A stretch of DNA of 64,000 bases, from NCBI GenBank assembly GCA_965226745.1, contig CBDDDS010000005.1, positions 850,389 to 914,388 on the forward strand, in the 5' to 3' direction. Source of the stretch: Dehalococcoidia bacterium. Its GTDB lineage: Bacteria; Chloroflexota; Dehalococcoidia; Lucifugimonadales; SAR202-VII-2. The position numbers were made by a program, and so were the translations under genes. The notes under the pieces are model-generated. The model was not told the DNA's origin. It made no database searches and was given only the letters and a program-made list of their open reading frames with translations. Below are positions 2,092 to 50,825 of this stretch, in pieces; position 1 is the first letter of the stretch; each line of letters opens with the position of its first letter.

Positions 2092-2190
2092 TGGCGGGAG
2101 CGGGAGGGAGTCGAACCCACCACAGACTGCGCAGGCAGCCCGCCAGCCGGGTTTGAAGCCCGTGAGGCCCACCGGGACCCATCCGCCCCC
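2092..2190 (-). tRNA. selC: tRNA-Sec (anticodon UCA), CCA encoded
   Basis: 99-nt reverse-complement sequence GGGGGCGGAT...GGGTTCGACTCCCTCCCGCTCCCGCCA. Folds with an 8-bp acceptor stem (one G-U), a 6-bp D stem with a 4-nt loop, the anticodon loop CUUCAAA, a long variable arm, and a 5-bp T stem with loop TTCGACT. This is the bacterial 8/5 tRNA-Sec architecture. Confidence 0.85.
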
Positions 2191-16477: not shown

Positions 16478-16803
16478 TCCCCGCCCCGTACTCAGGGGCG
16501 GCCTAGCAATCGTCCCCCTCTGCAATGAGCAAGGTCAGGATGCGCTCCCCCTCCGTTCCCCAAGCAGGGCGCAGGGGGCTGCTCTGTCCCTTCCCCTGTA
16601 CTCGGGGGAAGGTTAGGATGGGGGTCCCCGGCCCGCCAAGGTAAGCAAACGACGCCCCCCTCCTTTCCCCCAGCAGGGTGCAGGGGGCGCAGCCCCCGCC
16701 GGGGGTACAGCGAGTCCCCCTGTTTCTAAAAACGTTGGAGGGTGGGACGGTGGGACAACGGCGCACGCCAAGCCAGACCCTTCGCTGATGGAGGGCGCAG
16801 GCC
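16478..16803 (+). repeat. REP-like array upstream of the methyltransferase: about 2 'A' units plus 1 'B' module
   Basis: A units carry the hairpin CCCC-TGTACTC-GGGG followed by GAAGGTTAGGATGGGGG. The B module (16671-16803) is cagcagggtgcaggg...aaaaacgttggagggtggg...ggagggcgcaggcc. The same modules, in the same orientation, recur at 19925-20765. Confidence 0.85.
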
Positions 16804-16984
16804 AAAACGAAATCCTTCCTCCCATCCCTCCCCGCCCCCTGCCTGAGTGAACGCCGCCGCGGATGGGGAGCGTCAGGCGGCGGTTGTCCAATCGAGGGTG
16901 GGCCAACTAGACTGCGGGTATGGTGCAACGCAGCCTGAGCTTCGACCGCGGATTTGACGATTGCCCCTATATTGACCGGTTGAG

Positions 16985-19891
16985 TTGTTGAACGACGTGC
17001 CCCACCAGACCGAACCCAACGCCAACAACGCCCTGGGAGACCTGCTCCGCGGCATGATGCCCGGCTGCGAGGTCCGCTCCGAGAATACGCAGACCTTCCC
17101 TGACCATCCGGGGCGCCATGCCGACGTGCTGATCACGGCCCCGGGGCGCTCGCCGGTTGCCGTTGAGGCGGAGTATGAGCCGGCCCCCGAGGCGGAAGAG
17201 GACGCCCATGCGCGGCTGGGCCTGACCGTTGCAGGGGCGCTGCGGACCATCGAGGCGGCCATTGCCGTGCGCTACCCGGAGGCAGTGGAAGACGCCTACG
17301 ACGTGCGCCAGGCCCTGGCGGAAGCGCGCCTTTCCTACTGCGTACTCTACGAGGACGGCAGCCGCTTCCCCGAATCGGGGGGGCTGAACGGTTCGGCGAG
17401 CGACCTTGCCGACCTGGTGCGCCTGGTGTCGGTGCCGCAGAAGGCGGTGGACGAGGCGGCCGCGGTGCTCGAACACGGAATCGGGCAGGCGGCAAGCGTA
17501 CTCGATGACCTGGCGAAGCAGCGGCCTGCCATCATCACGGCGATAGCCCGCCTGCTGGGCATGGCCAACGTGCCCCAGACGCGCCGCATGGCCTGCGCCA
17601 TCGTCGCCAACGCCATGGTGTTCCACGAGCGGATTGCGGGGATGCACGACGAGGTCAAGCCGCTGGGGTTGGTGTTCGGCCCCAACGTTGGGAACCCGCA
17701 GGCCGAGGTGGAGAAAGCCTGGTCCGCCATCCTGAAGATCAACTACTGGCCCATATTCGCCATTGCCAAGGACATCTTGGGGCAGTTGCCGCCGGACAGC
17801 GCCGCCCAGGTGCTGCGGGGCCTGAGGGACACCGCTCAGACGGTGAACACCACCGGCGTGGACAATGCCCACAACCTGACCGGGCGCATCTTCCAGCGGC
17901 TGATCGCCGACCGGAAGTACCTGGCGACGTTCTACACCCTACCGGCGTCGGCGGCGCTGCTCGCGCGGCTGGCCGTCGCCAAGATGGACGGCGTGGACTG
18001 GTCGGATGCCGAGGCCATCGGGAAGCTGCGGGTTGCCGACTTCGCCTGCGGCACCGGCGCGTTGCTGTCTGCGGTGTACGAGCAGATTGCGGCCAGGCGC
18101 GAGCGGGCCGGGGGCAATCCGGCCGAGCTGCACCGGGCGATGATGGAGGAAGTGCTCTACGGCTGCGACGTGATGCCGTCGGCCATCCACATCACGGGGT
18201 CGACGCTTTCGGGAGTGGAGCCATCGGTGGGTTTTGAAAACTCCCGCCTGTACACCATGCCCTACGGCCGGCAGCGCGACGGGACGGTGAAGATTGGGTC
18301 GTTGGAGCTGCTGCAATCCTCGACGGCGCTGACGCTGTTCAACACGAGCGATCCGGCGATGCGCACGGGCAGCGCCGGGGAGGAGACGGCGGCGCAGGTC
18401 ACCGCGGAGATGCCCGACGAGGGTTTTGACCTGGTGATCATGAACCCGCCGTTTACCAGGAACGTGACTCGCGAAGGCGCATACGCTGACACAGTAGCCG
18501 CTGCCTTTGCGGCTTTTGGGGCAAGTGACGCAGACCAGAGGCAGATGGCAAAGCGAATGGAGGGCTTGAAGAAGGACACCTGCTATCACGGCAACGCCGG
18601 CATAGCTTCCGCGTTCGCGGCGTTGGCCAACCGAAAGCTCAAGCCCGGCGGCGTTCTTGCCCTGGTGCTGCCTCTGTCAGTGGCTAACGGCCTGTCATGG
18701 CAGGGTTTTCGGGAGATGCTGACGCGTAAGTATACGGATATAACGGTCTTGAGTATCGCAGCAAACGGTCGAGACATGTCCTTCTCGGCCGATACGGGCA
18801 TGGCGGAGTGCCTCGTAATCGCCCGCAAACTCAAGCCGGACGAACCGCCCTACGACCGGACGCACTTCACATCGCTTCGGCACAGACCGCAAGGGTTTGT
18901 TGATGCCGACGCTACCTTCAAAGGCATAGATACCGGTAACCACGTTAGGCGGGTCGAGGATGGGCCATACGGCGGCACGCCCCTGAACATAGGGAGTAGC
19001 CTGGCCGGTGAAACGATAACCGCCCCATGCGACCCAGGCGGGGGAAACTGGGGCGCGGTGCGCTTGGCCGACCATTCTTTGGCTCAAACCGCCTATGCCC
19101 TGTCCCAATCCGGGTTGTGGCTTCCCGGCAGCGGATCCTCAGTTGAGTTGAAGGTGGGGTTGCTAGGTGGCATAGGCAAACTCGGCACTTACGATCTTGA
19201 TATTATTGGACCACTTCCCCGTGGACCTTTCGACAAAGTAGCTCCCAGCCCGACGGCCACATACCCCGCCCTTTGGAACCACGACGCCAAAAATGAGACC
19301 TGGATGGTCTGTAAGCCTGACTCGCAGCTACAGGTTCGGCAGGGGATGGAAGCGAAAGCGGCCACGGTATGGGACACCGCCAGCCGCGCCCACATCAACC
19401 GTGACTTTACGTTCGGTTCCCAACCACTCGCGGTTGCATTCACAGACCAGGAATCAGTGGGTGGTAGGGTGTGGCCCAACGTGACCTTCGGTGACAAGCG
19501 GTTTAACTATGCCTTCACGGTCTGGGGCAACAGCACTCTGGGCTTGTTGTCGTATTGGTGGCACTCCAGCCGTCAGCAATCGAGCAAGGCAAGCATGACT
19601 ATCCGCTCCGCCGAAACCATCCCCGTACTGGACTTCCGCGCCCTCACTGACGAGCAGTTGCTGATGGCTGAGTCGATCTTCAACGAGTTCCGGGACAAGG
19701 AGCTCAAGCCCGCCTACCTCGCGGACGCCGACGCCAACCGGGCGCTGCTGGACCGCCGGGTCATCTGTGACCTGCTGGGGTTCGACGAGGATACTTACCT
19801 GGGCGTGCGCCGGTTGGCGGCCAAGTGGTGCGCCGAACCGTCGGTGCACGGAGGGAAGCCGCGACCGCCGGGCAGCGCGCTGGTCAGCTAG
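16985..19891 (+). CDS. large gamma-class N6-adenine DNA methyltransferase with extra N- and C-terminal domains (possible type IIG/IIL restriction-modification fusion or orphan MTase)
   Basis: 968 aa. Has the AdoMet motif I VADFACGTGALL, the catalytic motif IV DLVIMNPPF, and an FYT-type motif (ATFYTLPASAALLA) upstream. The N-terminal HADVLI-x11-EAEYE is only loosely PD-(D/E)xK-like. The start is uncertain (TTG 16985 or ATG 17054). Confidence 0.8.
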   Translation: MLNDVPHQTEPNANNALGDLLRGMMPGCEVRSENTQTFPDHPGRHADVLITAPGRSPVAVEAEYEPAPEAEEDAHARLGLTVAGALRTIEAAIAVRYPEAVEDAYDVRQALAEARLSYCVLYEDGSRFPESGGLNGSASDLADLVRLVSVPQKAVDEAAAVLEHGIGQAASVLDDLAKQRPAIITAIARLLGMANVPQTRRMACAIVANAMVFHERIAGMHDEVKPLGLVFGPNVGNPQAEVEKAWSAILKINYWPIFAIAKDILGQLPPDSAAQVLRGLRDTAQTVNTTGVDNAHNLTGRIFQRLIADRKYLATFYTLPASAALLARLAVAKMDGVDWSDAEAIGKLRVADFACGTGALLSAVYEQIAARRERAGGNPAELHRAMMEEVLYGCDVMPSAIHITGSTLSGVEPSVGFENSRLYTMPYGRQRDGTVKIGSLELLQSSTALTLFNTSDPAMRTGSAGEETAAQVTAEMPDEGFDLVIMNPPFTRNVTREGAYADTVAAAFAAFGASDADQRQMAKRMEGLKKDTCYHGNAGIASAFAALANRKLKPGGVLALVLPLSVANGLSWQGFREMLTRKYTDITVLSIAANGRDMSFSADTGMAECLVIARKLKPDEPPYDRTHFTSLRHRPQGFVDADATFKGIDTGNHVRRVEDGPYGGTPLNIGSSLAGETITAPCDPGGGNWGAVRLADHSLAQTAYALSQSGLWLPGSGSSVELKVGLLGGIGKLGTYDLDIIGPLPRGPFDKVAPSPTATYPALWNHDAKNETWMVCKPDSQLQVRQGMEAKAATVWDTASRAHINRDFTFGSQPLAVAFTDQESVGGRVWPNVTFGDKRFNYAFTVWGNSTLGLLSYWWHSSRQQSSKASMTIRSAETIPVLDFRALTDEQLLMAESIFNEFRDKELKPAYLADADANRALLDRRVICDLLGFDEDTYLGVRRLAAKWCAEPSVHGGKPRPPGSALVS

Positions 19892-19924: not shown

Positions 19925-20765
19925 CCTCCCACCCCTGCCCCCGCCTACGGGGGCAGCCTCTCTTCCTTCCCTCATACTCGGGGGAAGGCTAGGAAGCGTC
20001 CCCGCCAGGTCAAGCAAACCACGCCCCCTCCATCCCCCAAGCGAGGTGCAGGGGGCTGCTCTGTTCCTGCCCCTGTACTCGGGGGAAGGCTAGGAAGCGT
20101 CCCCGCCAGGTCAGCAAACCACGCCCCTTCCCTCCCCCAAGCGAGGCGCAGGGGGCTGCCCTGTCCCTGCCCCTGTACTCGGGGGAAGGCTAGGAAGCGT
20201 CCCCGCCAGGTCAGCAAACCACGCCCCTTCCCTCCCCCAAGCGAGGTGCAGGGGGTTGCTCTGTCCCTGCCCCTGTACTCGGGGGAAGGTTAGGATGGGG
20301 GTCCCCGCCAGGTCAGCAAACCACACCCCTTCCCTCCCCCAAGCGAGGTGCAGGGGGTTGCTCTGTCCCTGCCCCTGTACTCGGGGGAAGGCTAGGAAGG
20401 GGGTCCCTGCCCCCGTCCCCCAGCAGGGTGCAGGGAGCGCAGCCCCCGCCGGGGGTACAGGGGGAGTCCCCCTGTACCCAAAAACGTTGGAGGGCGGTGC
20501 GGGCGGGATAGCGGCGCACGCCACCATACCCCCCCTCTCTCCTTCCCCTCAGCCCCTGCCCCCGAGTACGGGGGCAGCCTAGGAAGCCTCTCGACGCGCC
20601 AAGGTGAGCAAACCACGCCCCCGCCATCCCCAAGCAGGGTGCAGGGGGTGCAGCCCCCGCCGGGGGGACAGGGGGAGTCCCCCTGTCCCCAAAAACGTTG
20701 GAGGGTGGGCCGGTGGGACAGCGGCGCACGCCAAGCCAAACCCTTCGCTGAAGGAGGGCGCAAGC
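19925..20765 (+). repeat. REP-like array downstream of the methyltransferase: about 5 tandem 'A' units of about 100 bp, then B'(truncated)-A-B modules
   Basis: TACTCGGGGGAAGG cores at 19975, 20076, 20176, 20276 and 20378 (spacing 100-102 bp). B modules at 20421-20523 (truncated) and 20632-20765. Units abut one another with no unique spacers. Confidence 0.9.
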
Positions 20766-20797
20766 CACAGCAAGACCATCCGTCCAGGGAGAGTCCC

Positions 20798-21215
20798 TGC
20801 CATCCCCCTATTGCAAAATACGAACAAGTGTGCTATAGTACCCCCATGAAGTCGGCCACCGGCCCCCTTCTCTTTCTCGGAGCCTGCCGCATACGTTGAG
20901 CACTGTGGGCTAACCATAGAGAATCCCCCTGTGGCAGGGGCGCTGAGGGAACAACCCAAGGGGCAAGACCCTCCGAGGAAGGCTGGGGCCGGAGCGAATG
21001 CCGTTGTAGGGCATAGGCTCTTGGGAGCCGCTTAGGCTCCCCGCGGTTTCGCTAAGGCTCGCGACGGCTCCGTCTCAGATCTGTCCCGGCTCCGTCACGG
21101 CTCCCTTCGAGAGCCGGCTGGTAAACGTCGCGAAGTGTCGCCAACTGTCCCACAGTCGTGACATCTGTCCCCTGGAGTGCTATGGATTACCGCTCTCGCT
21201 CCCGCCGCCTACCGC
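20798..21215 (+). repeat. element A of a 3-member promoter/leader element family (unknown function)
   Basis: Alignable by eye with 28126-28585: high identity over the first 250 nt or so, weaker in the middle, and shared again at gtgctatggattaccgctc. Contains a conserved hairpin GGGAGCC-GCTTA-GGCTCCC, GGCTCC motifs at multiples of about 11 nt, and the tail GGCTCCGTCACGG...GCCGGCTGG. Confidence 0.8.
20811..20839 (+). promoter_or_regulatory. sigma70-type promoter of element A
   Basis: TTGCAA-17 nt-TATAGT with spacer AATACGAACAAGTGTGC. An ATG lies 6 nt after the -10 box. Confidence 0.6.
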
Positions 21216-21489
21216 GCAAACCACGCAGGGCGCGACGCCTACAGGCAGAAGCGCGGTGGGTTCCGGGGCGGGACGGCTATCCGGACGGTGAAGCGGCCCC
21301 GGTCTTGGCCTCGCCGGGCTCGCATCGGCGGCAGGCTGAAGGCGCTCTCCTCAGCCTCGCAGACAAAGCCATCGAGGCGGAGCTGGCCCGGGGGCGGGTG
21401 AGGGGGCAGGCTAGGAAGGGCGCCTTCTCCTGGCAGGCGCTCGAATCGCAGTGCGTCTCTCACAGCTTCTTCAGAGGTTCTCGGGCAGC

Positions 21490-22326
21490 CTAGGCGTCGA
21501 TGGTCTGGCCGCCGTCCACGGCCAACGCGTGGCCGGTGACGAACGAGGCCTCGTCTGAGGCTAGGAAAAGCATCCCATAGGCGATCTCCTCAGGGTTCGC
21601 CAAACGCTGGAGACAACGATTGCGATTCGCGGAGGCCTGAAGAGCCGCCTGGCCCTCTTCCGGAGTCCTCCCCTCGGTGAGGTTCCTCAGCAGGCGCGGC
21701 GTCGCTGTGCCGCCGGGGCAGACGCAGTTCACGCGAATGCCCATCGGGCCGTAGTCGATGGCCATGCTCCGGGTCAGCAAAACGACGCCTCCCTTGGATG
21801 CGCTGTAGGCCGCGTAGTCGTTGGTTCCCAGGAGTCCATGGGTCGATGCGGTGTTCACGATGCTCCCCCTGCCCTGCGCCATCAAATGGGGCAAGCCAGC
21901 CTTGGAGCACAGGAACATCGAGGTCAGGTTGATGTTGATGAGGCGCTTCCATTCTGCTTCCGTGAGCTGGTCGACCCGGCCTCTGATGCCGGTCCCGGCG
22001 TTGTTGAGCAGGATGTCCAGACCTCCGAAGCGCTCCAGGGCCAGCGCCATCATCCCCTGGCAGCTTTCGGCGGACGTAACGTCAGCCTGAAAGAAGACTG
22101 CCTCGCCGCCTTCGCTCTGGATGAGCGCATCAATGCGGGGCGCGATGACCTCCACGAGGTCCACGCAGACCACCTTGGCCCCTTCGCGGGCGAACAGTCT
22201 GGCCGCCGCCCGCCCGATGCCGCTGTTGGCCCCGGTGATGACGGCGACTTTTCCCGCCAGCCGGCCCCGGCCGGAGCCCATCATCGGGTGTTCGTCAGTG
22301 CCCGGCGAGGTTGTTGTTGATGTCAT
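21490..22326 (-). CDS. classical short-chain dehydrogenase/reductase, tandem paralog 1 of 6
   Basis: 278 aa with TGANSGIGRA, NNAG and catalytic S...YSASK. Shares the N-terminal DEHPMMGSGRGRL extension with all the paralogs. Confidence 0.9.
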   Translation of the reverse strand: MTSTTTSPGTDEHPMMGSGRGRLAGKVAVITGANSGIGRAAARLFAREGAKVVCVDLVEVIAPRIDALIQSEGGEAVFFQADVTSAESCQGMMALALERFGGLDILLNNAGTGIRGRVDQLTEAEWKRLININLTSMFLCSKAGLPHLMAQGRGSIVNTASTHGLLGTNDYAAYSASKGGVVLLTRSMAIDYGPMGIRVNCVCPGGTATPRLLRNLTEGRTPEEGQAALQASANRNRCLQRLANPEEIAYGMLFLASDEASFVTGHALAVDGGQTIDA

Positions 22327-22359
22327 GGCAACTCCTTTTTCCAGCGTTGCGCCGCTGTC

Positions 22360-23180
22360 CTAAGCGTCGATGGTCTGGCCGCCGTCCACGGCGAGGGCGT
22401 GGCCGGTGACGAACGAGGCCTCGTCCGAGGCCAGGAAGAGCATAGCGTAGGCGATCTCTCCTCCGGGCTTGCTGGTCGTTGAAGGCAACGGTTCATCTTC
22501 GCTGCCTCCTGGATGGGAACCTGCCGCCGCGCCAGGTTTCCCAGCAGCAGGGGCGTCGCAGTCAGGCCGGGACAAACGCAATTCACCCGTATGCCCATCG
22601 GGCCGCAGTCGATGGCCATGCTTCGCGTCAGCATGACCACCCCGGCCTTGGAAGCACAGTAGGCGGGATTGTTCTCCGTCGCCAGCAGGCCGTACGTGGA
22701 CGCGGTGTTGACGATGCTCCCCCTGCCCTGCGCCATCATGTGGGGCAGGGCCGCTTTGGAGCAAAGAAACACCGAGGTCAGGTTGACGTCGATGAGGCGT
22801 TCCCAGTCTCCCAGCGGGAGAACGTCCACCCGCCCGCGAGCCGTTGTCCCGGCGTTGTTCAGGAGAATGTCCAACCCCCCAAAGCGCTCCAGGGCCAGCG
22901 CCATCATCTCCTGGCAGCTTTCGGCGGACGTGACATCCGCCTGGAAGAAGACCGCCTCGCCGCCGTCACCTTGGATAAGCGCGTCGATGCGCGGGGTAAT
23001 GACCTCCGCGAGGTCCACACAAACGACCTTAGCGCCCTCGCGGGCGAATAGCCTGGCCGCTGCCCGACCGATGCCGCTGTTGGCGCCGGTGATGACGGCA
23101 ACCTTGCCCGCCAGCCGTCCCCTCCCGGGGCCCATCATCGGGTGCTCGTTGGCGCCCTGTGCAGCTGTTGCAGAAGTCAT
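22360..23180 (-). pseudogene. SDR tandem paralog 2, apparently frameshifted near 22458
   Basis: The 5' part is in the frame of ORF 22323..23180. The conserved C-terminus (EIAYAMLFLASDEASFVTGHALAVDGGQTIDA) sits in the frame of ORF 22360..22764. An extra dinucleotide in GGAGGAGAGATCGCC, relative to the paralogs, explains the shift. It also has a shorter loop before NRCLQR. Confidence 0.7.
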
Positions 23181-23224
23181 GGCTGGTCCAAGGGTCTAGC
23201 GCAGTCCCCAGAGGGGGTGTTGCG

Positions 23225-23290
23225 CGGCCCCCATCCTAACCTTCCCCCGGGTACGAGGAGAGGGACGGAAGGAGGGGGAATGGACGGGGG
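23225..23290. repeat. dispersed REP-like core (inverted orientation) between SDR paralogs 2 and 3
   Basis: cccccatcctaaccttcccccgggtacgagg matches the reverse complement of the A-unit core. Confidence 0.7.
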
Positions 23291-23335
23291 GATTCTCCCG
23301 TCTCGCGCCTGTAACAACATCCCTGGGAAGTGCAG

Positions 23336-24172
23336 CTAAGCGTCGATGGTCTGGCCGCCGTCCACGGCCAACGCGTGGCCGGTGACGAACGAGGCCTCAT
23401 CGGAGGCCAGGAACAGCATGCCGTAGGCGATCTCCTCTGGGTTGGCGAGGCGCGACAGGCATCGGTTGATGTTGGCCGCGGCCTGAATGGAAGCCTCAGC
23501 GTCCTCGGGGCTTTTGCCCTGCGTCAGATTGCGCAGCAGCCGGGGCGTCGCCGTGGCGCCGGGGCAAACACAGTTCACGCGGATGCCCATGGGCCCGTAG
23601 TCGATAGCCATGCTTCGGGTCAGTAGGACCACGCCACCCTTGGAAGCGCAGTAGGCGGAGTAGCTCTCCGTGGCCAACAGCCCAAAGGTGGACGCTGTGT
23701 TGATGATGCTGCCGCGGCCCTGCGCCATCATGTGAGGCAGCGCCGCCTTGGATCCCAGGAAGACGGAGTTGAGGTTGATGTCCAGGAGGCGTTTCCAGTC
23801 CGTCTCTTCGAGCTGGTCGACTCGGCCTCTGATGCCGGTCCCGGCGTTGTTGACCAGAACGTCGAGACCTCCAAAGCGCTCCAACGCCAGGTTCACCATG
23901 CCCTGGCAGCTCTCGGCGGACGTGACGTCGGCCTGAAAGAAGACGGCCTCGCCGCCGTCGCCCTGGATCAGTGCGTCGATGCGCGGGGTAATGACCTCCG
24001 CCACGTCCACACAAACGACCCTAGCCCCCTCGCGGGAGAAGAGCCTGGCCGCCGCCCGCCCAATGCCGCTGTTGGCGCCGGTGATGACGGCGACCTTGCC
24101 TTCCAGGCGGCCCCTGCCGGGGCCTAGTCCGGGATGCTCGTCGGCGCCGGGTGAAGATGTTGCCGATGTCAT
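23336..24172 (-). CDS. classical SDR, tandem paralog 3
   Basis: Start at MTSATSSPGADEHPGLG (ATG 24172 after GGAGGG). Same motifs as paralog 1. Confidence 0.9.
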   Translation of the reverse strand: MTSATSSPGADEHPGLGPGRGRLEGKVAVITGANSGIGRAAARLFSREGARVVCVDVAEVITPRIDALIQGDGGEAVFFQADVTSAESCQGMVNLALERFGGLDVLVNNAGTGIRGRVDQLEETDWKRLLDINLNSVFLGSKAALPHMMAQGRGSIINTASTFGLLATESYSAYCASKGGVVLLTRSMAIDYGPMGIRVNCVCPGATATPRLLRNLTQGKSPEDAEASIQAAANINRCLSRLANPEEIAYGMLFLASDEASFVTGHALAVDGGQTIDA

Positions 24173-24204
24173 TGAATGCCCTCCAGGGTGCGAATGAAGG
24201 CGTC

Positions 24205-25041
24205 CTACGCCTTGATGGTCTGCCCCCCATCCACGCACAGCGCGTGGCCGGTGACGAACGAAGCCTCGTCGGAAGCTAGAAACACCATGCCGTAGGCGAT
24301 TTCCTCGGGGTTGGCGAGTCGCTTGAGGGCGTGGTTGGTGTCAGCGACGGCGTCGAGGGCGGCCTGACCTTCTTCAGGGCTCTTGCCCTGTGTCAGGCCC
24401 CGTATCAGCCTTGGCGTGGCGGTGCCCCCGGGGCAAAGACAGTTCACCCGGATGCCCATGGGCCCGTAGTCGATGGCCATGCTCCGGGTCAAGAGGATTA
24501 CCGCCCCCTTCGATGCGCAATAAGCAGCGTACCGGCTCACCGCTAACAGCCCGAACGTCGAGGCAGTGTTGATGATGCTGCCTTGGCCCCGTTCCATCAT
24601 GTGGGGCAGCGCGGCCTTCGATCCCAAGAACACGGAGTTGAGGTTGATGTCGAGGAGGCCGCTCCAGTCTGCGAACGTGAGCTCGTCGACCCGGCCAAAC
24701 ACGCCAGTGCCGGCATTGTTCACCAGAACGTCGAGACCTCCAAAGCGCTCTAGCGCCAATGCAACCATGCCCTGGCAGCTCTCAGGGGAGGTGACGTCCG
24801 CCTGGAAAAAGACGGCCTCTCCGCCATCGCTTTCAATCAATGCGTCGATGCGGGGCGTAATGACCTCCGCCACGTCCACGCAAACGACCTTGGCGCCCTC
24901 GCGGGCGAAGAGACGAGCCGCGGCGCGGCCAATGCCGCTGTTGGCGCCAGTGATAACGGCAACCTTACCTTCCAGCCGCCCGCGGCCGGGGCCCATCATG
25001 GAATGTTCGTCAGCGCTTGGCGCGGCCGATGCGGACGTCAT
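24205..25041 (-). CDS. classical SDR, tandem paralog 4
   Basis: 278 aa with the same motifs. Exactly 885 bp from the equivalent point in paralog 5. Confidence 0.9.
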   Translation of the reverse strand: MTSASAAPSADEHSMMGPGRGRLEGKVAVITGANSGIGRAAARLFAREGAKVVCVDVAEVITPRIDALIESDGGEAVFFQADVTSPESCQGMVALALERFGGLDVLVNNAGTGVFGRVDELTFADWSGLLDINLNSVFLGSKAALPHMMERGQGSIINTASTFGLLAVSRYAAYCASKGAVILLTRSMAIDYGPMGIRVNCLCPGGTATPRLIRGLTQGKSPEEGQAALDAVADTNHALKRLANPEEIAYGMVFLASDEASFVTGHALCVDGGQTIKA

Positions 25042-25089
25042 GGCTCCTCCTCGGCTAGCCGCTTCGGGCTATGGCTGGTTTCGAGAATG

Positions 25090-25926
25090 TTAGGCGTCCG
25101 TGGTCTGGCCGCCGTCCACGGCGAGGGCGTGGCCGGTGACGAACGAAGCCTCGTCCGAGGCCAGGAAGAGCATCCCGTAGGCGATCTCCTCCGGCTGCGC
25201 CAATCGTTGGATGGCCCGATTGATGGCGGCGGCGGCGGCCACAGAGGCCTCGGCCTCCGCCGGGCTCTTGCCTTCCGTCAGAATCCTCAATAGCCGGGGC
25301 GTCGCCGTCCCGCCGGGGCAGATGCAGTTGACCCGAATGCCCATCGGCCCGTAGTCGATGGCCATGCTCCGAGTCAGCAGCACGACGCCGCCCTTGGAGG
25401 CGCTGTAGACGGCATAGCTGGCCGTGCCCAACAGACCGAAGGTGGAAGCAGTGTTGACAATGCTCCCCTTACCTTTGGACATCATGTGCGGCAACGCCGC
25501 CTTCGACCCAAGGAACACGCCGGTCAGGTTGAGGTCCACAATCCTCTTCCAGTCCCCTTCTGATAGCTGGTCGACGCGGCCCCACACGCCCGCGCCGGCG
25601 TTGTTGACGAGGATATCCAGGTCTCCGAATCGCTCTAGGGCCAGGTTCACCATGCCCTGGCAGCTCTCGGCAGAGGTAACGTCTCCCAGGAAGAAAGCCG
25701 CCTCGCCCCCCTCACCTTGAATGAGAGCGTCAACGCGGGGCGCGATATCCTCAACAAGGTCAACGCAGACCACTTTGGCGCCCTCTCGGGCGAAGAGACG
25801 GGCCGTAGCGCGGCCGATGCCGCTGTTGGCGCCGGTGACGACGGCAACCTTGCCCTCCAGCCGCCCCCTCCCGGAACCCATCATGGGATGTTCGTCAGCG
25901 CCTGACGAGGCTGCTTGGGACGTCAT
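25090..25926 (-). CDS. classical SDR, tandem paralog 5
   Basis: 278 aa with the same motifs. The 48-nt spacer is homologous to the spacer after paralog 4. Confidence 0.9.
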   Translation of the reverse strand: MTSQAASSGADEHPMMGSGRGRLEGKVAVVTGANSGIGRATARLFAREGAKVVCVDLVEDIAPRVDALIQGEGGEAAFFLGDVTSAESCQGMVNLALERFGDLDILVNNAGAGVWGRVDQLSEGDWKRIVDLNLTGVFLGSKAALPHMMSKGKGSIVNTASTFGLLGTASYAVYSASKGGVVLLTRSMAIDYGPMGIRVNCICPGGTATPRLLRILTEGKSPAEAEASVAAAAAINRAIQRLAQPEEIAYGMLFLASDEASFVTGHALAVDGGQTTDA

Positions 25927-25974
25927 GGCTCCTCCTTGGGTAACCGCTTCGGGCTGTAATTGATTTCGGGGATG

Positions 25975-26793
25975 CTAAGCGTCGATGGTCTGGCCGCCGT
26001 CCACGGCGAGGGCGTGGCCGGTGACGAACGATGCCTCGTCCGACGCCAGGAAGAGCATACCGTAGGCGATCTCCTCCGGGTGCGCCAATCGTTGGATGGC
26101 CCGGTTGATCTTGGCGGCCTCTGCTATGGCAGCCTCGGGGTCGGGCTGCGAGTTGAAGAAGCGGAGCAACCTTGGCGTAGCCGTAGCGCCGGGGCACACG
26201 CAGTTCACCCTGATTCCCATAGGGCCGTAGTCGATGGCCATGCTCCGGGTCAGCAGCACCACGCCTCCCTTCGAAGCACAGTAGGCAGCGTAGTCCTCCG
26301 ACGCCAGCAAACCGAACGTTGAAGCGGTATTGATGATGCTCCCGCGCCCCTTTTCCATCATGTGCGGCAGGGCGGCCTGAGAGCCGTTGAACACGCTGTT
26401 CAGGTTCGTATCGATCACGGAGCCCCATTGCTCGGCGGTTAGCTGGTCCACCCTGCCGCGGATGCCCGTGCCCGCGTTATTCACCAGGATATGCAGATCG
26501 CCGTAGGTGTTCAGCGCCGTGGCCACCATTCGGTCGCAGTCGGCGCGATTGGTCACATTCACGTTGACGAAGGTGCACTCGCCTCCCTGGCTCTTGATGA
26601 GATCGTCGATACGAGGCTGAATGTCCTCCACGAAGTCTACCCCAACGACCTTGGCGCCCTCTCTGGCGAAGAGGTCCGCAGTCGCTCTTCCGATGCCGCT
26701 GTTGGCGCCGGTGACGATGGCGACCTTGCCCTCGAGCCGCCCCCTGCCTGGGCCCAATCCCGGATGCTCTTGCACTGAAGCCTGCGTGGTCAC
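25975..26793 (-). CDS. classical SDR, tandem paralog 6 (most divergent)
   Basis: 272 aa with TGANSGIGRA, NNAG and YCASK. Confidence 0.9.
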   Translation of the reverse strand: MTTQASVQEHPGLGPGRGRLEGKVAIVTGANSGIGRATADLFAREGAKVVGVDFVEDIQPRIDDLIKSQGGECTFVNVNVTNRADCDRMVATALNTYGDLHILVNNAGTGIRGRVDQLTAEQWGSVIDTNLNSVFNGSQAALPHMMEKGRGSIINTASTFGLLASEDYAAYCASKGGVVLLTRSMAIDYGPMGIRVNCVCPGATATPRLLRFFNSQPDPEAAIAEAAKINRAIQRLAHPEEIAYGMLFLASDEASFVTGHALAVDGGQTIDA

Positions 26794-26828
26794 GATGATC
26801 CTCCTATCAGCCGGGTGTAATGCAACAT

Positions 26829-26861
26829 GGGACTGCCCCGCCTCGCTTGGGGGACAGTCCC
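26829..26861 (-). other. intra-operon GC hairpin between the amidohydrolase and SDR paralog 6
   Basis: GGGACTGCCCC-loop-GGGGGACAGTCCC, with one bulge. Confidence 0.35.
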
Positions 26862-26880
26862 CGCAATGGCTACGCAGTGA

Positions 26881-28005
26881 CTATGCGCCGTTGATCCCGT
26901 AGAGCGCCCGCGGGTTGTCGATGAGAATCTTGTTCTTGACCTCTTCGGACAAATCGGGCCGGCGCTTCAGGTCGGGCACAATCCCGTCTTCCCTGGACTG
27001 GTCCTGGTGCCCGTAATCGGAGCCGATGATGATGTTGTCCTCGCCGATGAAGTTCAGCAAGTAGCCAATGTCCTCGTCGACCTCGGTGGCAACGTAGAGG
27101 CGATAGTCGCGGAACAGTTGCGGCCCCCACCAATCGCCCCAGTTGGGCCCGGTGGCCGTGACCTGGAAGCCGGCCTTCGACGACCGCCGCAGCAGGTGCA
27201 TGACGTAGGGGACCCAGGACGACGCGGCCTCCACAAAAGCGAACCGGAGATCGGGGAACCGCTCGGGGATTTTGTTCGCGACGATGTCTCGAAAGGCGAA
27301 GAGGGGCATCACCCGGACGTGAGGGAACACGTGGCTGTACTGGATGTCTATGAGCTTGGTCAGAGCCGGAACTCCGCCCCCGGTGTGGAAACAGATGGGT
27401 AGGCCGGCCCGCTGCGCCGCCTCGTAAATGGGGAAGAAATAGGGCTCCGCCACCGAGCGGGTGCCCTCGATGCCCCGGAACAGCAGTCCCACGGCGCCGT
27501 TCTCTTTCACGACGTTGATCTCCTCTATGGTGGCCTCAACCGAGCGCAGCGGAACGGGGGCCACCCAGCGGATGCGGTTCCCGCCCTTGGCCCAAACGTC
27601 CGCCATGTAGCGGTTGTAGGCGCGGCACAGAGCGATCTCCAAGTCCACGTCGTCCGTCAGGTACATGATGAACATGGTGGGGTAGACGACTTCAATGTCA
27701 ACGTCTCGTTCGTCCATCGCCTTGATGCGGCCGGGTACATCGGAGATGCCGCGCACCCCTGCTGCAACGTCGGTGCGGGACTCCTCCTTGATGCCGCCGG
27801 GCACGTGCAGGCCGAAGCTTCCCTTCCCTTTGGGCCGGGGGAATATCTCCCCGTCTATGAGCCAGAACGCGTTGAACTCGCCGTACCACGTATCGGGAGG
27901 AGCGATGAGCCGGACGGGGCGTCGCTCGTACCACTCCCTGTCCATGTGTTCCCAGATACCGGGATGCTCGATGATGTGGGTGTCGGCGTCGACGATGCCC
28001 GCCAT
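26881..28005 (-). CDS. amidohydrolase_2 family metal-dependent hydrolase/decarboxylase (ACMSD-like TIM barrel)
   Basis: Start at MAGIVDADTHIIEHP (ATG 28005 after GGGAGGTGG). The N-terminal D-x-H-x-H-type metal motif and the length of about 374 aa fit the family. Confidence 0.8.
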   Translation of the reverse strand: MAGIVDADTHIIEHPGIWEHMDREWYERRPVRLIAPPDTWYGEFNAFWLIDGEIFPRPKGKGSFGLHVPGGIKEESRTDVAAGVRGISDVPGRIKAMDERDVDIEVVYPTMFIMYLTDDVDLEIALCRAYNRYMADVWAKGGNRIRWVAPVPLRSVEATIEEINVVKENGAVGLLFRGIEGTRSVAEPYFFPIYEAAQRAGLPICFHTGGGVPALTKLIDIQYSHVFPHVRVMPLFAFRDIVANKIPERFPDLRFAFVEAASSWVPYVMHLLRRSSKAGFQVTATGPNWGDWWGPQLFRDYRLYVATEVDEDIGYLLNFIGEDNIIIGSDYGHQDQSREDGIVPDLKRRPDLSEEVKNKILIDNPRALYGINGA

Positions 28006-28078
28006 AGTAACCACCTCCCGTCGAATTGCGTCGCGATTCCACCAGCGGCCAGTCGGACGCGGCCAAGGGACACGGTAT

Positions 28079-28107
28079 GTTATGGCAGCGCTGGGGCAGG
28101 CTGTCAA
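28079..28107 (-). promoter_or_regulatory. candidate promoter of the amidohydrolase-SDR operon
   Basis: On the minus strand, TTGACA-17 nt-CATAAC lies about 75 nt upstream of the start. It sits back-to-back with the element B promoter. Confidence 0.45.
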
Positions 28108-28125
28108 GGGAACGGCGCGCTGCGC

Positions 28126-28585
28126 CTGCCTCTCCCTATTGCATAATACGAACTTTTGTACTATAGTATCGCCATGAAGTCGGCCGCCAGCCCGCTTCTC
28201 TTCCTTGGAACCTGCCGCATACGTCTTGTACTGGGGAATCCATAGAGAATGCCCCGGTGGCAGCGCTTGGGGAACATCCCCCAGGCCCACAACCCTCCGA
28301 GGAAGCGTGGGACCAGAGCGAATCCCGTTTCGAGACAAGCTCTTTGGAGCCATAAGGCTCCGCCACAGTTCATGACGATTCGCTACGACATCACTACGGT
28401 TCTTCACAACTCTCTTATGACTTCATTGCGCCTCTGATGCGCCTCTGTGGCGGCTCCGTGCCTGCAAACCCCGAAATCCGGCTGATACGCGTAACGAATC
28501 CTCGCTCACCGTCTCGAACTCTTAACTGTTGGCGCGTGGACGTGCCATAAATTACCGCTCGCGGTCCCGCCAGTCGGCGCCAGGA
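28126..28585 (+). repeat. element B of the promoter/leader element family
   Basis: Homologous to 20798-21215. Has the hairpin GGAGCC-ATAA-GGCTCC, a degenerate run of about 11-nt periodicity at about 28375-28470, and a tail GGCTCCGTGCCTGCA...TCCGGCTGA (28452-28485) nearly identical to element C. Confidence 0.8.
28139..28167 (+). promoter_or_regulatory. sigma70-type promoter of element B
   Basis: TTGCAT-17 nt-TATAGT with spacer AATACGAACTTTTGTAC. An ATG lies 6 nt after the -10 box. Confidence 0.6.
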
Positions 28586-28633
28586 CGGACAGGTCTGAAA
28601 GGGCGTCCAGCAACCGGCAGGCTTGGCCCAGCC

Positions 28634-49131: not shown

Positions 49132-50334
<1,203 letters not shown>

Positions 50335-50570
50335 CTGTCAACTCCCTGTTCCGGTGTTCACCGTCGCCCCAGCCGCGCGGCGCGGCAAACCGGGGCAGGG
50401 CCAGCCCTATTGGACCAAGCCGCCGCCCCATCCAACGCCAGGGATAGCTTGCACCAGTCCGTGGAGCGCGGCATGGCCGGATAGGGAAGATAGCGGCGGG
50501 GAAGGCGCAGCCTTTGATTGTATGTTGGTTGCGCTTGTCAGCCGGACCCCGGAGGGTGCAGGCACGGAGC

Positions 50571-50664
50571 CATCGCAGAGGCGTCGCGTATCCGTCGCGA
50601 GCCGTCGCGGAGGCGTCGCGTACCCGTCGCGTACCCGTCGCGCATCCGTCGCGGAGCCGTCGCC
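50571..50664. repeat. 11-bp tandem repeat, 9 units (core CGTCGCG on the plus strand, CGCGACG on the minus strand)
   Basis: Cores start at 50571 (CATCGCA), 50582, 50593, 50603, 50614, 50625, 50636, 50647 and 50658 (CGTCGCC). Spacing is 11, 11, 10, 11, 11, 11, 11, 11. Confidence 0.9.
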
Positions 50665-50726
50665 CGGCGCCGAACGAGGAGTGGACGGGGGTCCGCTTCT
50701 TGGAGATACTTTAGCATCTTGACGAT

Positions 50727-50755
50727 ATCATAGCACAGATGTTCTTATCCTGCAA
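50727..50755 (-). promoter_or_regulatory. sigma70-type promoter of element C / argG
   Basis: On the minus strand, TTGCAG-17 nt-TATGAT with spacer GATAAGAACATCTGTGC. Confidence 0.6.
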
Positions 50756-50825
50756 GTAGGAGGGCCGGGGGCAGAGATTCCCTAGCTAGGCCCCAAGGAA
50801 GCCAGGGGGCGTCCGTGATTGCAAC

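What the first reader, a model, noticed from the sequence alone, without database searches (positions are those of the whole stretch)
20798..21215. Unannotatable family of promoter-plus-leader elements present three times (A 20798-21215 +, B 28126-28585 +, C 50335-50755 -)
All three loci begin with a near-consensus promoter of the same build: TTGCAn, a 17-nt spacer, then TATnnT. Runs of short motifs with about 11-nt periodicity follow. In A the motif is GGCTCC. In B it is a degenerate TCTnnnGCGCC-type unit. In C there are 9 units ending in CGCGAC. The tail is shared: GGCTCCGT, about 18 nt, then CCGGCTG(A/G).

A and B additionally share a head domain of about 200 nt at high identity, with a hairpin whose stem is kept while its loop differs (GGGAGCC-GCTTA-GGCTCCC versus GGAGCC-ATAA-GGCTCC). 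C looks like a head-deleted version and runs directly into argG. A and B are not followed by any credible same-strand gene.

The modular head / variable-repeat / tail layout resembles BOX-type modular repeats or a structured leader or sRNA family, but I recognise no known RNA family or mobile element in it.
Basis: seen in the sequence. Interest (0 to 1): 0.75.

Follow-up and report, generated by a model that had tools for sequence, protein, structure and literature searches.

The report
Dispersed SOS-promoter, terminase-leader repeat family
The three look-alike loci are real members of a repeat family with about 50 or more copies per genome, derived from the DNA-damage-type promoter and long leader (probably the DNA-packaging recognition site) of a decaying phage terminase gene pair, and such a module spread across a bacterial chromosome has, to my knowledge, not been described before.

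Summary
A, B and C share a 26-nt promoter pattern (chance expectation 0.01) and a tail. A and B also share a ~200-nt head.

They belong to a large family. A sister genome (Dehalococcoidia MAG OZ253584.1, ~96% identical) holds at least 49 copies, and 57 of 60 copies examined keep the promoter.

The promoter is TTGCAA-17-TGnTATAGT with GAAC-N4-GTGC in the spacer. This is the LexA/Cheo-box layout found upstream of uvrA and a Y-family polymerase in other Chloroflexota.

Complete units continue into a 153-164-aa zinc-ribbon ORF with a good SD. That ORF overlaps a phage large-terminase gene, so it sits in the small-terminase position.

The "variable repeats" are direct 10/11-nt units (mean 10.58 nt, the B-DNA helical repeat), usually 9-11 per array. 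This is the geometry expected for DNA wrapped on a small-terminase ring. I therefore read the leader as a pac-like site transcribed from an SOS promoter.

- A keeps a zinc-ribbon-deleted ORF remnant.
- B keeps a dead remnant.
- C is a head-deleted solo copy aimed at argG.

There is no Rfam, phage, plasmid or metagenome match. RNA covariation is not significant. There are no terminal inverted repeats or target duplications. The function of the solo copies is unknown.

The parts
20400..20795 (+). 'U module': a hairpin-rich repeat that precedes many copies and flanks the terminase cassette on both sides. It is not part of the core element, because B lacks it.
   Evidence: BLAST coverage profile. 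Other copies lie at window 16589-16843 and, partially, at 19950-20255. In L026 it follows terL about four times.
20796..20845 (+). Copy A, left boundary and promoter. Features: -35 TTGCAA 20811-20816; CGAAC-N4-GTGC box 20821-20833; extended -10 TG 20831-20832; TATAGT 20834-20839; predicted start about 20846.
   Evidence: Conservation across 55 copies: the hexamers and both half-sites are near-invariant, while the first three spacer bases of N4 vary freely.
20846..21046 (+). Copy A head: 5' hairpin P1, long-range helix UCUUUCUCGGAG/CUCCGAGGAAG, helix CUGCCGCA/UGUGGCAG, and terminal hairpin 21023-21041.
   Evidence: nhmmer head profile, E 1.9e-78. The + strand folds with z -3.54 and the - strand with z -1.07. 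Covariation is not significant.
21053..21175 (+). Copy A phased array. GTCNC-type units every 10-11 nt lie on both sides of a central hairpin GGCTCCC-TTCG-AGAGCC (21100-21116). TCGCGACG (21059-21066) is complementary to CGTCGCGA (21126-21133). The array runs up to the SD GGAG (21174-21177).
   Evidence: Sequence; TRF, period 11; family-wide spacing statistics.
21183..21493 (+). Copy A remnant of the terS-position ORF (103 aa). The zinc ribbon is deleted. The C-terminal part is homologous to the family protein.
   Evidence: Translation. It is homologous to P0021 and P0022 and to the intact 153-164-aa proteins.
28126..28173 (+). Copy B, left boundary and promoter. Features: TTGCAT 28139-28144; GAAC-TTTT-GTAC 28150-28161; TATAGT 28162-28167.
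   Evidence: The coverage boundary is sharp at about 28126.
28174..28361 (+). Copy B head (variant II), ending in hairpin GGAGCC-ATAA-GGCTCC (28346-28361).
   Evidence: nhmmer E 3.8e-64. Fold z -2.50. It differs from its own ortholog L006 by a gene-conversion tract of about 180 nt.
28362..28451 (+). Copy B array: about 9 degenerate 10-11-nt units (ACRR + YUC-rich).
   Evidence: best period 11. It is 94.5% identical to the ortholog.
28452..28500 (+). Copy B tail (GGCTCCGTGCCTGCAAACCCCGAAATCCGGCTGA) plus anti-repeat CGCGTAAC (28488-28495).
28501..28600 (+). Copy B dead remnant of the terS-position ORF (ATA in place of ATG at 28547, early stops).
   Evidence: The coverage profile fades out at about 28575.
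50727..50770 (-). Copy C promoter. Features: TTGCAG 50755-50750; GAAC-ATCT-GTGC 50744-50733; TATGAT 50732-50727.
50664..50726 (-). Copy C duplicated -10-like segment plus a degenerate P1 hairpin (about 50699-50677). The remaining ~170 nt of head are missing.
   Evidence: The head profile matches positions 1-72 only. The same duplication is present in L016 and L018.
50572..50663 (-). Copy C array: 9 units of 10-11 nt ending in CGCGAC.
   Evidence: TRF: period 11, 7.5 copies, 84% matches.
50511..50571 (-). Copy C tail and type-2 3' end (…CCGGCTGACAAGCGCAACCAACATACAATCAAAGG).
   Evidence: In other copies the type-2 boundary falls directly after AATCAAAGG.
49132..50334 (-). argG (argininosuccinate synthase), co-oriented with C and 176 nt downstream of it. 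It is context, not part of the element.
   Evidence: Pfam Arginosuc_synth and Arginosuc_syn_C. No terminator-like site on this strand between C and argG.

Best explanation
A, B and C are three dispersed, ORF-less or ORF-decayed copies of the 5' control region of a prophage-derived DNA-packaging operon. The family is specific to this Dehalococcoidia lineage.

**The complete unit (about 2.2 kb), in order:**
1. A strong sigma-70-type promoter (TTGCAA, 17 nt, extended -10 TGnTATAGT). Its spacer carries a Gram-positive-type LexA box (CGAAC-N4-GTGC), so transcription is probably induced by DNA damage.
2. A transcribed leader of about 380 nt. It contains a conserved head that folds stably on the sense strand. 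An array of direct 10/11-nt units, usually 9-11 of them, follows. Then comes a conserved ~35-nt tail, and after it an inverted copy of the unit or a second phased array.
3. A 153-164-aa protein with an N-terminal treble-clef-like zinc ribbon and a helical C-terminal part.
4. An overlapping large terminase gene (TerL).

**Proposed mechanism (inferred, not shown).** The zinc-ribbon protein is the small terminase. The phased repeats are its binding array, with one unit per subunit of a ring and DNA wrapped one helical turn per subunit. The repeats plus the tail would then be the pac (packaging-initiation) site. It lies, as in SPP1, between the promoter and terS.

**The short forms.** These run from promoter to tail, about 370-400 bp. 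They have multiplied to about 50 or more copies and exchange segments by gene conversion.

**In this window.**
- A retains a zinc-ribbon-deleted ORF remnant.
- B retains a dead remnant and points into the 3' end of a convergent gene.
- C has lost the head and is positioned to read into argG.

Whether the solo copies still act (as packaging sites, as SOS promoters or as LexA sinks) or are relics is open.
For: **Family and copy number.**
- 41 exact promoter-pattern hits carrying the head in OZ253584.1, from a truncated scan.
- 49 head-profile hits in the loci held from that genome.
- 60 hits in all loci held, 57 of them with the promoter motif.

**Selection on the promoter and operator.** The -35, ATA[CA]GAAC and TGTGCTATAGT are near-invariant in 55 copies. 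The first three bases of N4 vary freely.

**SOS character.** In other Chloroflexota the same pattern precedes uvrA (L071, also with a GTGC half-site) and an IMS/Y-family polymerase gene (L047). In Firmicutes the hits carry GAAC-N4-GTTC, which is the B. subtilis SOS box (PMC4234289).

**Link to terminase.**
- L135 9478-11666, L137 8257-10437 and L026 58-2265 are collinear.
- L026 917-2203 is TerL: Terminase_6N 1.8e-29, Terminase_6C 4e-15, PHROG terminase large subunit 1e-38.
- The zinc-ribbon ORF (L026 562-1014) overlaps its start and has a GAGGTG SD.
- The window's own genome has the cassette at contig position ~3.316 Mb (L138).
- In a Thermaerobacter prophage with 70% identical TerL, a 152-aa gene sits in the same position and portal, protease and capsid genes follow.

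**Repeat geometry.** Spacings are 164 x 11 nt and 103 x 10 nt, mean 10.58. GTAAC-type arrays alternate 10/11 exactly. The stretch from head to tail anchor is 114-116 nt in about 15 copies spanning different repeat types.

**Joint gain.** The relative L141/L142 has the promoter, the P1 hairpin, a 117-aa homologue of residues 44-153 (41% identity, E 2e-18), terL and portal. It has no zinc ribbon, no head and no repeats.

**Precedents.**
- The SPP1 pac site has direct repeats spanning the promoters and the start of terS. TerS ring DNA-binding domains sit about one B-DNA turn apart (PMC4737164).
- The SaPI packaging operon containing terS is LexA-controlled (PMC5052747).

**Gene conversion.** B and its ortholog L006 are 97-98% identical in the flanks. 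They are 80-87% identical across the promoter and head, where the differences cluster in one tract of about 180 nt.
Against: - The small-terminase assignment rests on position and predicted helical architecture only. There is no Pfam, NCBIfam, PADLOC, PHROG-function or PDB match. There is no similarity to the Thermaerobacter gene in the same position. The AlphaFold model has low confidence, pLDDT 55.
- No portal or capsid genes lie next to the cassette in L026, L135 or L138.
- TerL carries an internal ~54-aa deletion in the window's genome and is frameshifted in L135 and L137. The packaging system may therefore be dead. Long-read assembly errors could also cause the frameshifts.
- The LexA half-site is GTGC, not GTTC. 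The change also creates the extended -10 TG. No canonical SOS gene of this lineage was available for comparison, and the 436 kb scanned held no convincing box.
- A pac site needs neither the promoter nor the ~200-nt head, yet both are the best-conserved parts of the solo copies. The model does not explain this.
- In SF6 and SPP1 the direct repeats contributed little to binding by the isolated DNA-binding domain (PMC4737164).
- The mechanism of spread is unknown. There are no terminal inverted repeats and no target duplications.
Confidence: 0.55

Rival explanations
1. The leader works as RNA. The head and repeats form a cis-acting regulatory leader of the terS-terL operon, for example a processive antiterminator, an attenuator, or a translational operator bound by the zinc-ribbon protein. 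The solo copies then express an SOS-induced ~350-400-nt non-coding RNA whose repeated ACGR/pyrimidine units sequester a protein or RNA.
For: - The promoter is conserved in 57 of 60 copies.
- Sense-strand folding is much better than shuffles (z -3.5 and -2.5). The antisense strand is not (z -1.1).
- One-sided changes in helix 2 are all C-G to U-G: 20 and 15 of 42 sequences, with no breaks at those columns.
- The last repeat and the segment after the tail are complementary and differ together between subfamilies: GTAAC with GTTAC, GTTAC or TTGCG with CGTAAC, TCGCGACG with CGTCGCGA. G-U pairs occur in some copies.
- P1 shows an A-U to G-C exchange relative to L141.
Against: - Covariation over the head is no better than in shuffled controls: 1 pair with double changes, and 53/500 shuffles reach the score.
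- About a third of standard-tail copies lack any complement to their repeat, namely the CGAC and GTGAC types with the CAAACTTAACAAC segment.
- A mean spacing of 10.58 with strict 10/11 alternation has no obvious RNA rationale.
- No Rfam match, even at E up to 10.
- No homologues outside one narrow lineage, so structural conservation cannot be tested.
Confidence: 0.2
2. The solo copies are functionless relics of a selfish, non-autonomous repeat (MITE- or BOX-like 'mobile promoter'). It spread and is now homogenised by gene conversion. The 10/11-nt units are a slippage-generated minisatellite without function. Any effect on neighbours, such as C on argG, is incidental.
For: - Boundaries are sharp: about 18 nt upstream of -35, and directly after AATCAAAGG.
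- Both orientations relative to neighbouring genes occur at roughly equal frequency.
- Tandem pairs and promoter-deleted or head-deleted copies exist.
- ORFs have decayed in most type-1 copies.
- There is gene conversion between copies.
- The number and sequence of units vary between copies.
- TerL is damaged in several genomes.
Against: - There are no terminal inverted repeats and no target-site duplications. No transposase is associated with the element.
- Constrained and free positions contrast strongly within the promoter.
- The head-to-tail distance is 114-116 nt across subfamilies with different unit sequences. Free slippage would not give this.
- The head, the repeats and the zinc ribbon were gained together, which suggests the array arose with a function.
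Confidence: 0.2

Closest known systems
pac (packaging-initiation) regions of headful phages, e.g. SPP1/SF6 pacL-pacC-pacR
   Same: - It lies between a promoter and the start of the gene in the terS position, directly upstream of terL.
- It contains sets of direct repeats.
- Its ~100-bp length and one-turn spacing fit DNA wrapped on a small-terminase ring (PMC4737164).
   Different: - There are 9-11 nearly identical short units, rather than a few boxes.
- The presumed DNA-binding domain is a zinc ribbon, not a helix-turn-helix.
- A ~200-nt conserved structured segment sits between the promoter and the repeats.
- The region exists in about 50 extra copies without terminase genes.
- Binding and cleavage are untested.
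SaPI/PICI packaging module (operon I) under LexA control
   Same: It is a terS-containing packaging operon repressed by the SOS repressor (PMC5052747). Here a LexA-type box sits in the promoter of a chromosomal terS-terL cassette that lacks capsid genes.
   Different: - No integrase, replication module, capsid-remodelling genes or att sites are seen around the cassette.
- The cassette also carries terL.
- The control region is amplified genome-wide.
BOX elements of Streptococcus pneumoniae and promoter-bearing MITEs (e.g. Correia elements); own knowledge
   Same: It is an interspersed intergenic repeat of a few hundred bp. It has a modular head / variable-number internal unit / tail layout. 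It can place a promoter next to host genes (copy C and argG).
   Different: - The internal units are 10-11 nt, against 45 nt for boxB.
- There are no terminal inverted repeats or target duplications.
- Each copy carries a complete regulated promoter.
- The origin can be traced to a phage operon.
REP13E12 repeat family of Mycobacterium tuberculosis (own knowledge: several copies carry SOS boxes and are DNA-damage inducible)
   Same: It is a chromosomal multi-copy family whose members carry LexA-type operators.
   Different: - REP13E12 has only about 7 copies of ~1.4 kb, which are protein-coding.
- It has no phased short repeats and no terminase link.
- There is no sequence relationship.
Iteron-type centromeres bound by ring or helical protein assemblies (R1 parC, ten 11-bp iterons for ParR; own knowledge)
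   Same: About ten direct repeats spaced at one helical turn serve as a cooperative protein-binding array next to a promoter.
   Different: There are no partition genes. Here the array lies inside a transcribed leader upstream of terminase genes.

Membership tests
Any Rfam RNA family | Covariance-model match at the gathering score | tested here: not met
   The whole window at gathering score gives only tRNA-Sec. Region A at E up to 10 gives only chance miRNA/lncRNA hits.
Structured non-coding RNA (generic) | Compensatory base changes supporting a conserved secondary structure | tested here: inconclusive
   94.6% of cells are paired, but only 1 pair has changes on both sides, and the score is reached by 53/500 shuffles. 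Strand-specific stability is z -3.5 against -1.1. The sequences are too similar (81% mean column identity) for a real test.
LexA-regulated (SOS) promoter, Gram-positive/Cheo-box type | GAAC-N4-GTTC operator overlapping the promoter | tested here: inconclusive
   CGAAC-N4-GTGC (7 of 8 core bases) lies between -35 and -10 in A, C and almost all copies. B has GTAC. The same variant precedes uvrA in an Anaerolineaceae MAG. The consensus is from PMC4234289.
LexA-regulated (SOS) promoter, Gram-positive/Cheo-box type | LexA binding and DNA-damage induction | not testable with these tools
   This needs EMSA or transcriptomics. No lexA, recA or uvrA promoter of this lineage was in the 436 kb held.
Phage pac site | Located at or next to terS-terL | tested here: met
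   In complete units the leader is immediately upstream of the ORF that overlaps terL. This does not hold for A, B and C themselves, which are solo or decayed copies.
Phage pac site | Bound by the small terminase and cut by the large terminase; packaging starts there | not testable with these tools
   Only the geometry argues for it: 10.58-nt spacing and 9-11 units.
Small terminase (TerS) | Sequence or structural homology to known TerS families | tested here: not met
   - No Pfam, NCBIfam, PHROG-packaging or PDB hit.
- BLASTP against the Thermaerobacter gene in the same position is negative.
- The AF2 model has pLDDT 55.
- Position, size (~150 aa), an N-terminal nucleic-acid-binding-type zinc ribbon and a helical remainder are compatible with TerS but not diagnostic.
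MITE / IS-derived non-autonomous transposon | Terminal inverted repeats and target-site duplication | tested here: not met
   End-to-end inverted-repeat scores equal the shuffled controls in 10 copies. No duplicated flank was found.
Type III toxin-antitoxin (ToxIN-like) | Tandem ~34-40-nt RNA repeats, then a terminator, then a ToxN/AbiQ-type endoribonuclease | tested here: not met
   The units are 10-11 nt. The ORF has no PADLOC or Pfam match. The next gene is terL.
Gene transfer agent / phage satellite | Capsid or other morphogenesis genes, or satellite hallmarks (integrase, replication module), linked to the packaging genes | tested here: not met
   The neighbours of the cassette in L026, L135, L137 and L138 are host genes or unknowns without PHROG hits. 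Only the more distant L141 keeps a portal gene. The rest of the genome could not be searched.

The most novel reading that the evidence does not exclude
The ~50 solo copies are working packaging-initiation sites. On DNA damage the LexA-controlled terS-terL cassette is expressed. Its zinc-ribbon small terminase assembles on the phased arrays scattered over the chromosome. Headful packaging of host DNA then starts from each of them into capsids supplied by a prophage or by unlinked genes. This would be a chromosome-wide, site-directed, SOS-triggered gene-transfer system (a pac-seeded GTA or lateral-transduction analogue). Local transcription from each copy's own promoter might help to open or mark the site.
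Probability: 0.12. Interest if true: 0.9.

Novelty: new variant of a known kind. Interest (0 to 1): 0.64.

Why it matters
**If the reading is right**
- The small-terminase recognition array is written out with unusual clarity: one short direct repeat per helical turn, about one per ring subunit, and co-acquired with a zinc-ribbon DNA-binding domain. That makes the debated 'DNA wraps around the TerS ring' model directly testable with a defined sequence.
- As far as I know, this would be the first case in which a phage operon's promoter-plus-pac region has been amplified into an interspersed repeat family.

**Consequences for the host, in any case**
- About 50 extra LexA-type operators could buffer the SOS repressor.
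- About 50 strong damage-inducible promoters fire into neighbouring genes, such as argG in this window.

**For annotation**
These 0.4-1.6-kb 'empty' intergenic regions in Dehalococcoidia MAGs can now be labelled.

Tried and rejected
- **Small leaderless peptide (MKSATGPLLFLGACRIR) at the transcript start.** Rejected. The ATG is replaced by CAGG or AAG in several copies, and the segment forms a hairpin.
- **Known RNA family.** Rfam is negative at gathering score and at E up to 10.
- **Phage or plasmid DNA similarity.** None.
- **Wider distribution.** A metagenome scan with a degenerate three-block head pattern gave 36 loci. None matched the head profile, so all are chance.
- **Leader of host genes.** Rejected as a general role. 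The downstream gene is convergent about as often as co-oriented.
- **IS200/IS605-type or MITE-type element.** No end hairpin pair, no TIR, no TSD. The TTAC/TCAA resemblance to IS608 cleavage sites was judged coincidental.
- **Type III TA, CsrB-like sponge, retron/DRT template.** The defining features are absent.
- **Ortholog of C in the sister genome.** L029 looked like one but shares only another repeat module, not argD-argG.
- **Structure-based function for the zinc-ribbon protein.** The AlphaFold model was too poor (pLDDT 55), so no fold search was run.
- **Profile search of 1.8 billion proteins.** The full-length family is confined to a handful of clusters. Beyond those, only the zinc-ribbon motif matches: DUF2116 or Phage_zn_bind_8-type proteins, some fused to HNH or a methylase.
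- **Canonical SOS boxes (GAAC-N4-GTTC) in 436 kb of lineage DNA.** Only intragenic chance matches.
Full report
**1.

The three loci were read directly. The pattern TTGCA-N2-ATA-N-GAAC-N4-GT-N-CTAT occurs exactly three times in 64 kb: 20811-20836 (+), 28139-28164 (+) and 50730-50755 (-). Shuffles give 0.01 matches. All three have a 17-nt spacer. The shared tail GGCTCCGT-N18-CCGGCTG is present in all three.

A and B align along a ~200-nt head. A head profile built later finds only these two full copies in the window, plus C. C matches profile positions 1-72 only.

Tandem Repeats Finder reports period-11 arrays at 21064-21104, 28427-28447 and 50582-50663.

Rfam finds nothing in these regions. The window's only hit is a tRNA-Sec at 2096-2190.

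**2. It is a large, lineage-restricted family.**

The window is part of ENA ERZ28763718 ctg125183, a 3.33-Mb contig.

A scan of one genome per species with the promoter pattern returned two kinds of hit.
- Ordinary promoters with GAAC-N4-GTTC in Firmicutes and various Chloroflexota.
- 41 hits in a single Dehalococcoidia MAG chromosome, OZ253584.1 (3.09 Mb). All of them continue into the A/B-type head.

That genome is about 96% identical to the window over 8 kb (L006 corresponds to window 21230-29216).

With a head profile, the loci held from that genome contain 49 copies. They include tandem pairs 550-700 nt apart and copies that have lost the promoter. Across all loci held there are 60 hits, and 57 keep the promoter motif.

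Nothing similar exists in the phage or plasmid collections. A metagenome scan with a degenerate head pattern produced only chance matches.

**3. Anatomy of a copy.**

The core begins about 18 nt upstream of the -35 and has sharp boundaries.

*Promoter.* In 55 aligned copies the -35 TTGCAA, the block ATA[CA]GAAC and the block TGTGCTATAGT are nearly invariant. The first three bases between GAAC and GTGC vary freely. This is the signature of selection on a promoter with an operator, not of recent copying alone. TGnTATAGT is an extended -10.

*5' end of the transcript.* The ATG that follows the -10 is not conserved (CAGGAAG or AAGAAG in some copies). It lies in a hairpin, P1, so it does not start a peptide.

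*Head.* It folds far better than shuffles on the sense strand (z -3.54 for A, -2.50 for B) but not on the antisense strand (z -1.07). The consensus contains a 12-bp long-range helix and an 8-9-bp helix. The copies are too alike for a covariation test. 94.6% of cells pair, but only one pair shows double changes, no better than shuffles. RNA structure is therefore plausible but unproven.

*Repeats.* Between copies the unit differs: GTAAC-, GTTAC-, GTGAC/GTCAC-, CGAC- and CTAC-types. The spacing is constant: 164 intervals of 11 nt and 103 of 10 nt, mean 10.58. GTAAC-type arrays alternate 10 and 11 strictly. In about 15 copies with different unit types, the stretch from the end of the head to the tail anchor measures 114-116 nt.

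*After the tail.* Many copies carry an inverted copy of their own unit, for example TTTGTAACG…CGTTACAAA. Others carry GTTAC paired with CGTAAC, or TCGCGACG paired with CGTCGCGA as in A. About a third carry no such complement. In A-type leaders a second phased array continues up to the ribosome-binding site.

*3' ends.* There are two kinds.
- Type 1 continues into an ORF or its remnant. A and B are of this type.
- Type 2 ends right after ACAATCAAAGG. C is of this type.

There are no terminal inverted repeats or target duplications.

**4. What the leader leads to.**

In type-1 copies the sequence after the tail starts, behind a GAGGTG or GGAG Shine-Dalgarno, an ORF beginning MDYR…. Most copies are decayed, with cysteine codons mutated, frameshifts or deletions.

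Intact versions of 153-164 aa exist in several related assemblies. They have an N-terminal CxxC…YCSxRC zinc ribbon and a helical remainder. They match no curated family or solved structure. The zinc motif resembles DUF2116 / Phage_zn_bind_8-type fingers, which occur in phage proteins.

Collinear comparison of three complete units shows that the unit is about 2.2 kb. The ORF is overlapped by a 428-aa gene that is a phage large terminase: Terminase_6N 1.8e-29, Terminase_6C 4e-15, PHROG 'terminase large subunit' 1e-38.

The window's own genome carries this cassette about 1.76 Mb away on the contig (L138). There the 153-aa ORF is intact, and terL has an internal deletion of about 54 aa. terL is intact in OZ253584.1 and frameshifted in two other assemblies, which could be decay or long-read error.

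The TerL family is ordinary phage TerL. A 70% identical homologue in a Thermaerobacter prophage is preceded by a 152-aa gene and followed by portal, protease and capsid genes. The zinc-ribbon ORF thus occupies the small-terminase position. This is an inference from position, since there is no sequence similarity.

No morphogenesis genes flank the cassette in this lineage.

**5. An informative relative.**

In L141/L142 (TerL 79% identical) the operon reads as follows.
1. Promoter TTGCGA…GAGAACATTTGTGCTATACT.
2. A perfect P1 hairpin followed by a U-run.
3. Directly after that, a 117-aa ORF homologous to residues 44-153 of the zinc-ribbon protein (41% identity, E 2e-18).
4. terL, a 158-aa ORF, and portal.

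It has no zinc ribbon, no head and no repeats. The promoter, P1 and the C-terminal part of the protein are therefore ancestral. The head, the phased repeats and the zinc ribbon were gained together in the window's lineage. This is the expected pattern if the zinc ribbon is the domain that reads the repeats.

P1 differs from the family by an A-U to G-C exchange, one genuine compensatory change.

**6. SOS character of the promoter.**

GAAC-N4-GTTC is the B. subtilis-type LexA operator (PMC4234289). In other Chloroflexota the very same promoter pattern precedes three kinds of gene.
- uvrA in an Anaerolineaceae MAG, which has the same GTGC half-site.
- An IMS/Y-family polymerase gene.
- A TnpB gene.

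LexA control is therefore likely, though the GTGC variant and the lack of this lineage's own SOS promoters leave it unproven. A LexA-controlled packaging operon has a precedent in SaPI operon I (PMC5052747).

**7. Proposed mechanism.**

[quoted passage not shown] About 100 bp of DNA is thought to wrap around the ring (PMC4737164).

Here, an array of 9-11 direct units at 10.58-bp spacing covers about 100-115 bp. It sits between a promoter and the gene in the terS position. It was acquired together with a zinc-ribbon domain. It fits that geometry closely.

I therefore read the repeats plus tail as a pac-like site, and the element family as amplified copies of 'SOS promoter + pac-like leader'.

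Steps shown:
- family membership;
- conservation pattern of the promoter;
- repeat spacing;
- physical linkage to terL.

Steps inferred:
- LexA control;
- TerS identity of the zinc-ribbon protein;
- binding of the array;
- any activity of the solo copies.

The model does not explain why the head and the promoter are the best-conserved parts of the solo copies. This keeps an RNA-level role alive as a rival.

**8. Evolutionary dynamics.**

B and its ortholog L006 are 97-98% identical in the flanks. Across the promoter and head they are only 80-87% identical, and the differences cluster in one tract of about 180 nt. There the two genomes carry different head variants. This indicates gene conversion between copies.

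Solo copies face the downstream gene or converge with it about equally often. The family is therefore not a dedicated leader of host genes.

C is co-oriented with argG, 176 nt upstream, with no terminator-like site between them. It could place argG under this promoter.

**9. The three window copies.**

- **A (20796-21493, +).** It is preceded by a 'U module' and by a 100-nt tandem repeat. It has the promoter, head, a short phased array around a central hairpin, and a 103-aa ORF remnant lacking the zinc ribbon. It converges on an SDR gene.
- **B (28126-~28600, +).** It has the promoter (GTAC half-site), a variant head, about 9 degenerate units, the tail, and a dead ORF remnant. It lies between the 5' end of an amidohydrolase gene and the 3' end of an EamA transporter gene.
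- **C (50770-50511, -).** It has the promoter, a duplicated -10 segment and a degenerate P1, no head, 9 CGCGAC units, the tail and a type-2 end. argG follows.

**10. Verdict.**

The feature is real and non-random, and as far as I can find it is undescribed.

The element is best filed as a new interspersed repeat family, derived from the SOS-type promoter and pac-like leader of a decaying prophage terminase operon. Function of the solo copies is unresolved.

Noticed in passing
window 19975-20399: A 100-nt unit is repeated 4.2 times in tandem (93-94% matches). It is made of a REP-like hairpin (…TCCCTGCCCCTGTACTCGGGGGAAGGCTAGGAAGCGTCCC…) plus part of the U module. It fills much of the 1.6-kb gene-free stretch upstream of A.
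   Followed up: partly
window 16589-16843, 20400-20795; L026 2293-3011: The 'U module' is a second abundant repeat of about 150-250 nt. It has G/C hairpins and a terminator-like ACAGGGGGAGTCCCCCTGT-TTCC. It precedes many element copies, also occurs alone, and flanks the terS-terL cassette on both sides. Its role is unknown; boundary, insulator and recombination substrate are possibilities.
   Followed up: partly
window 50430-50495 (- strand, between C and argG): Another shared module (TATCCGGCCATGCCGCGC…GGACTNGTGCA…CTATCCCT) recurs downstream of several type-2 copies in the sister genome, in L029, L046 and L072. It first misled me into taking L029 for C's ortholog.
   Followed up: partly
window 2092-2190 (-): A tRNA-Sec gene (anticodon TCA; Rfam 60.5 bits), so the organism uses selenocysteine.
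   Followed up: no
window 21490-26793 (-): Six consecutive paralogous short-chain dehydrogenase genes (272-300 aa, 72-79% identical at the DNA level) lie between copies A and B.
   Followed up: no
window 16985-19891 (+); L138 1-1196; L135 1-1362: An Eco57I-like type IIG restriction-modification gene sits just upstream of copy A's region. A paralogous Eco57I/N6_Mtase gene lies next to another element copy near the master cassette, in two genomes. This may be coincidence or linkage.
   Followed up: no
L010 2463-2489 (Chloroflexota MAG JACAEO010000015.1): A perfect LexA-box promoter (TTGCAAAATACGAACAAATGTTCTATAAT) lies directly upstream of a TnpB (OrfB_IS605 / Cas12f-like) gene. This suggests SOS control of a TnpB in another Chloroflexota.
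   Followed up: partly
L138 9935-10999 (window's genome, contig position ~3.316 Mb): The large terminase of the window's own master cassette has an in-frame internal deletion of about 54 aa (residues ~201-254 of the OZ253584.1 protein). The adjacent 153-aa zinc-ribbon ORF is intact.
   Followed up: partly
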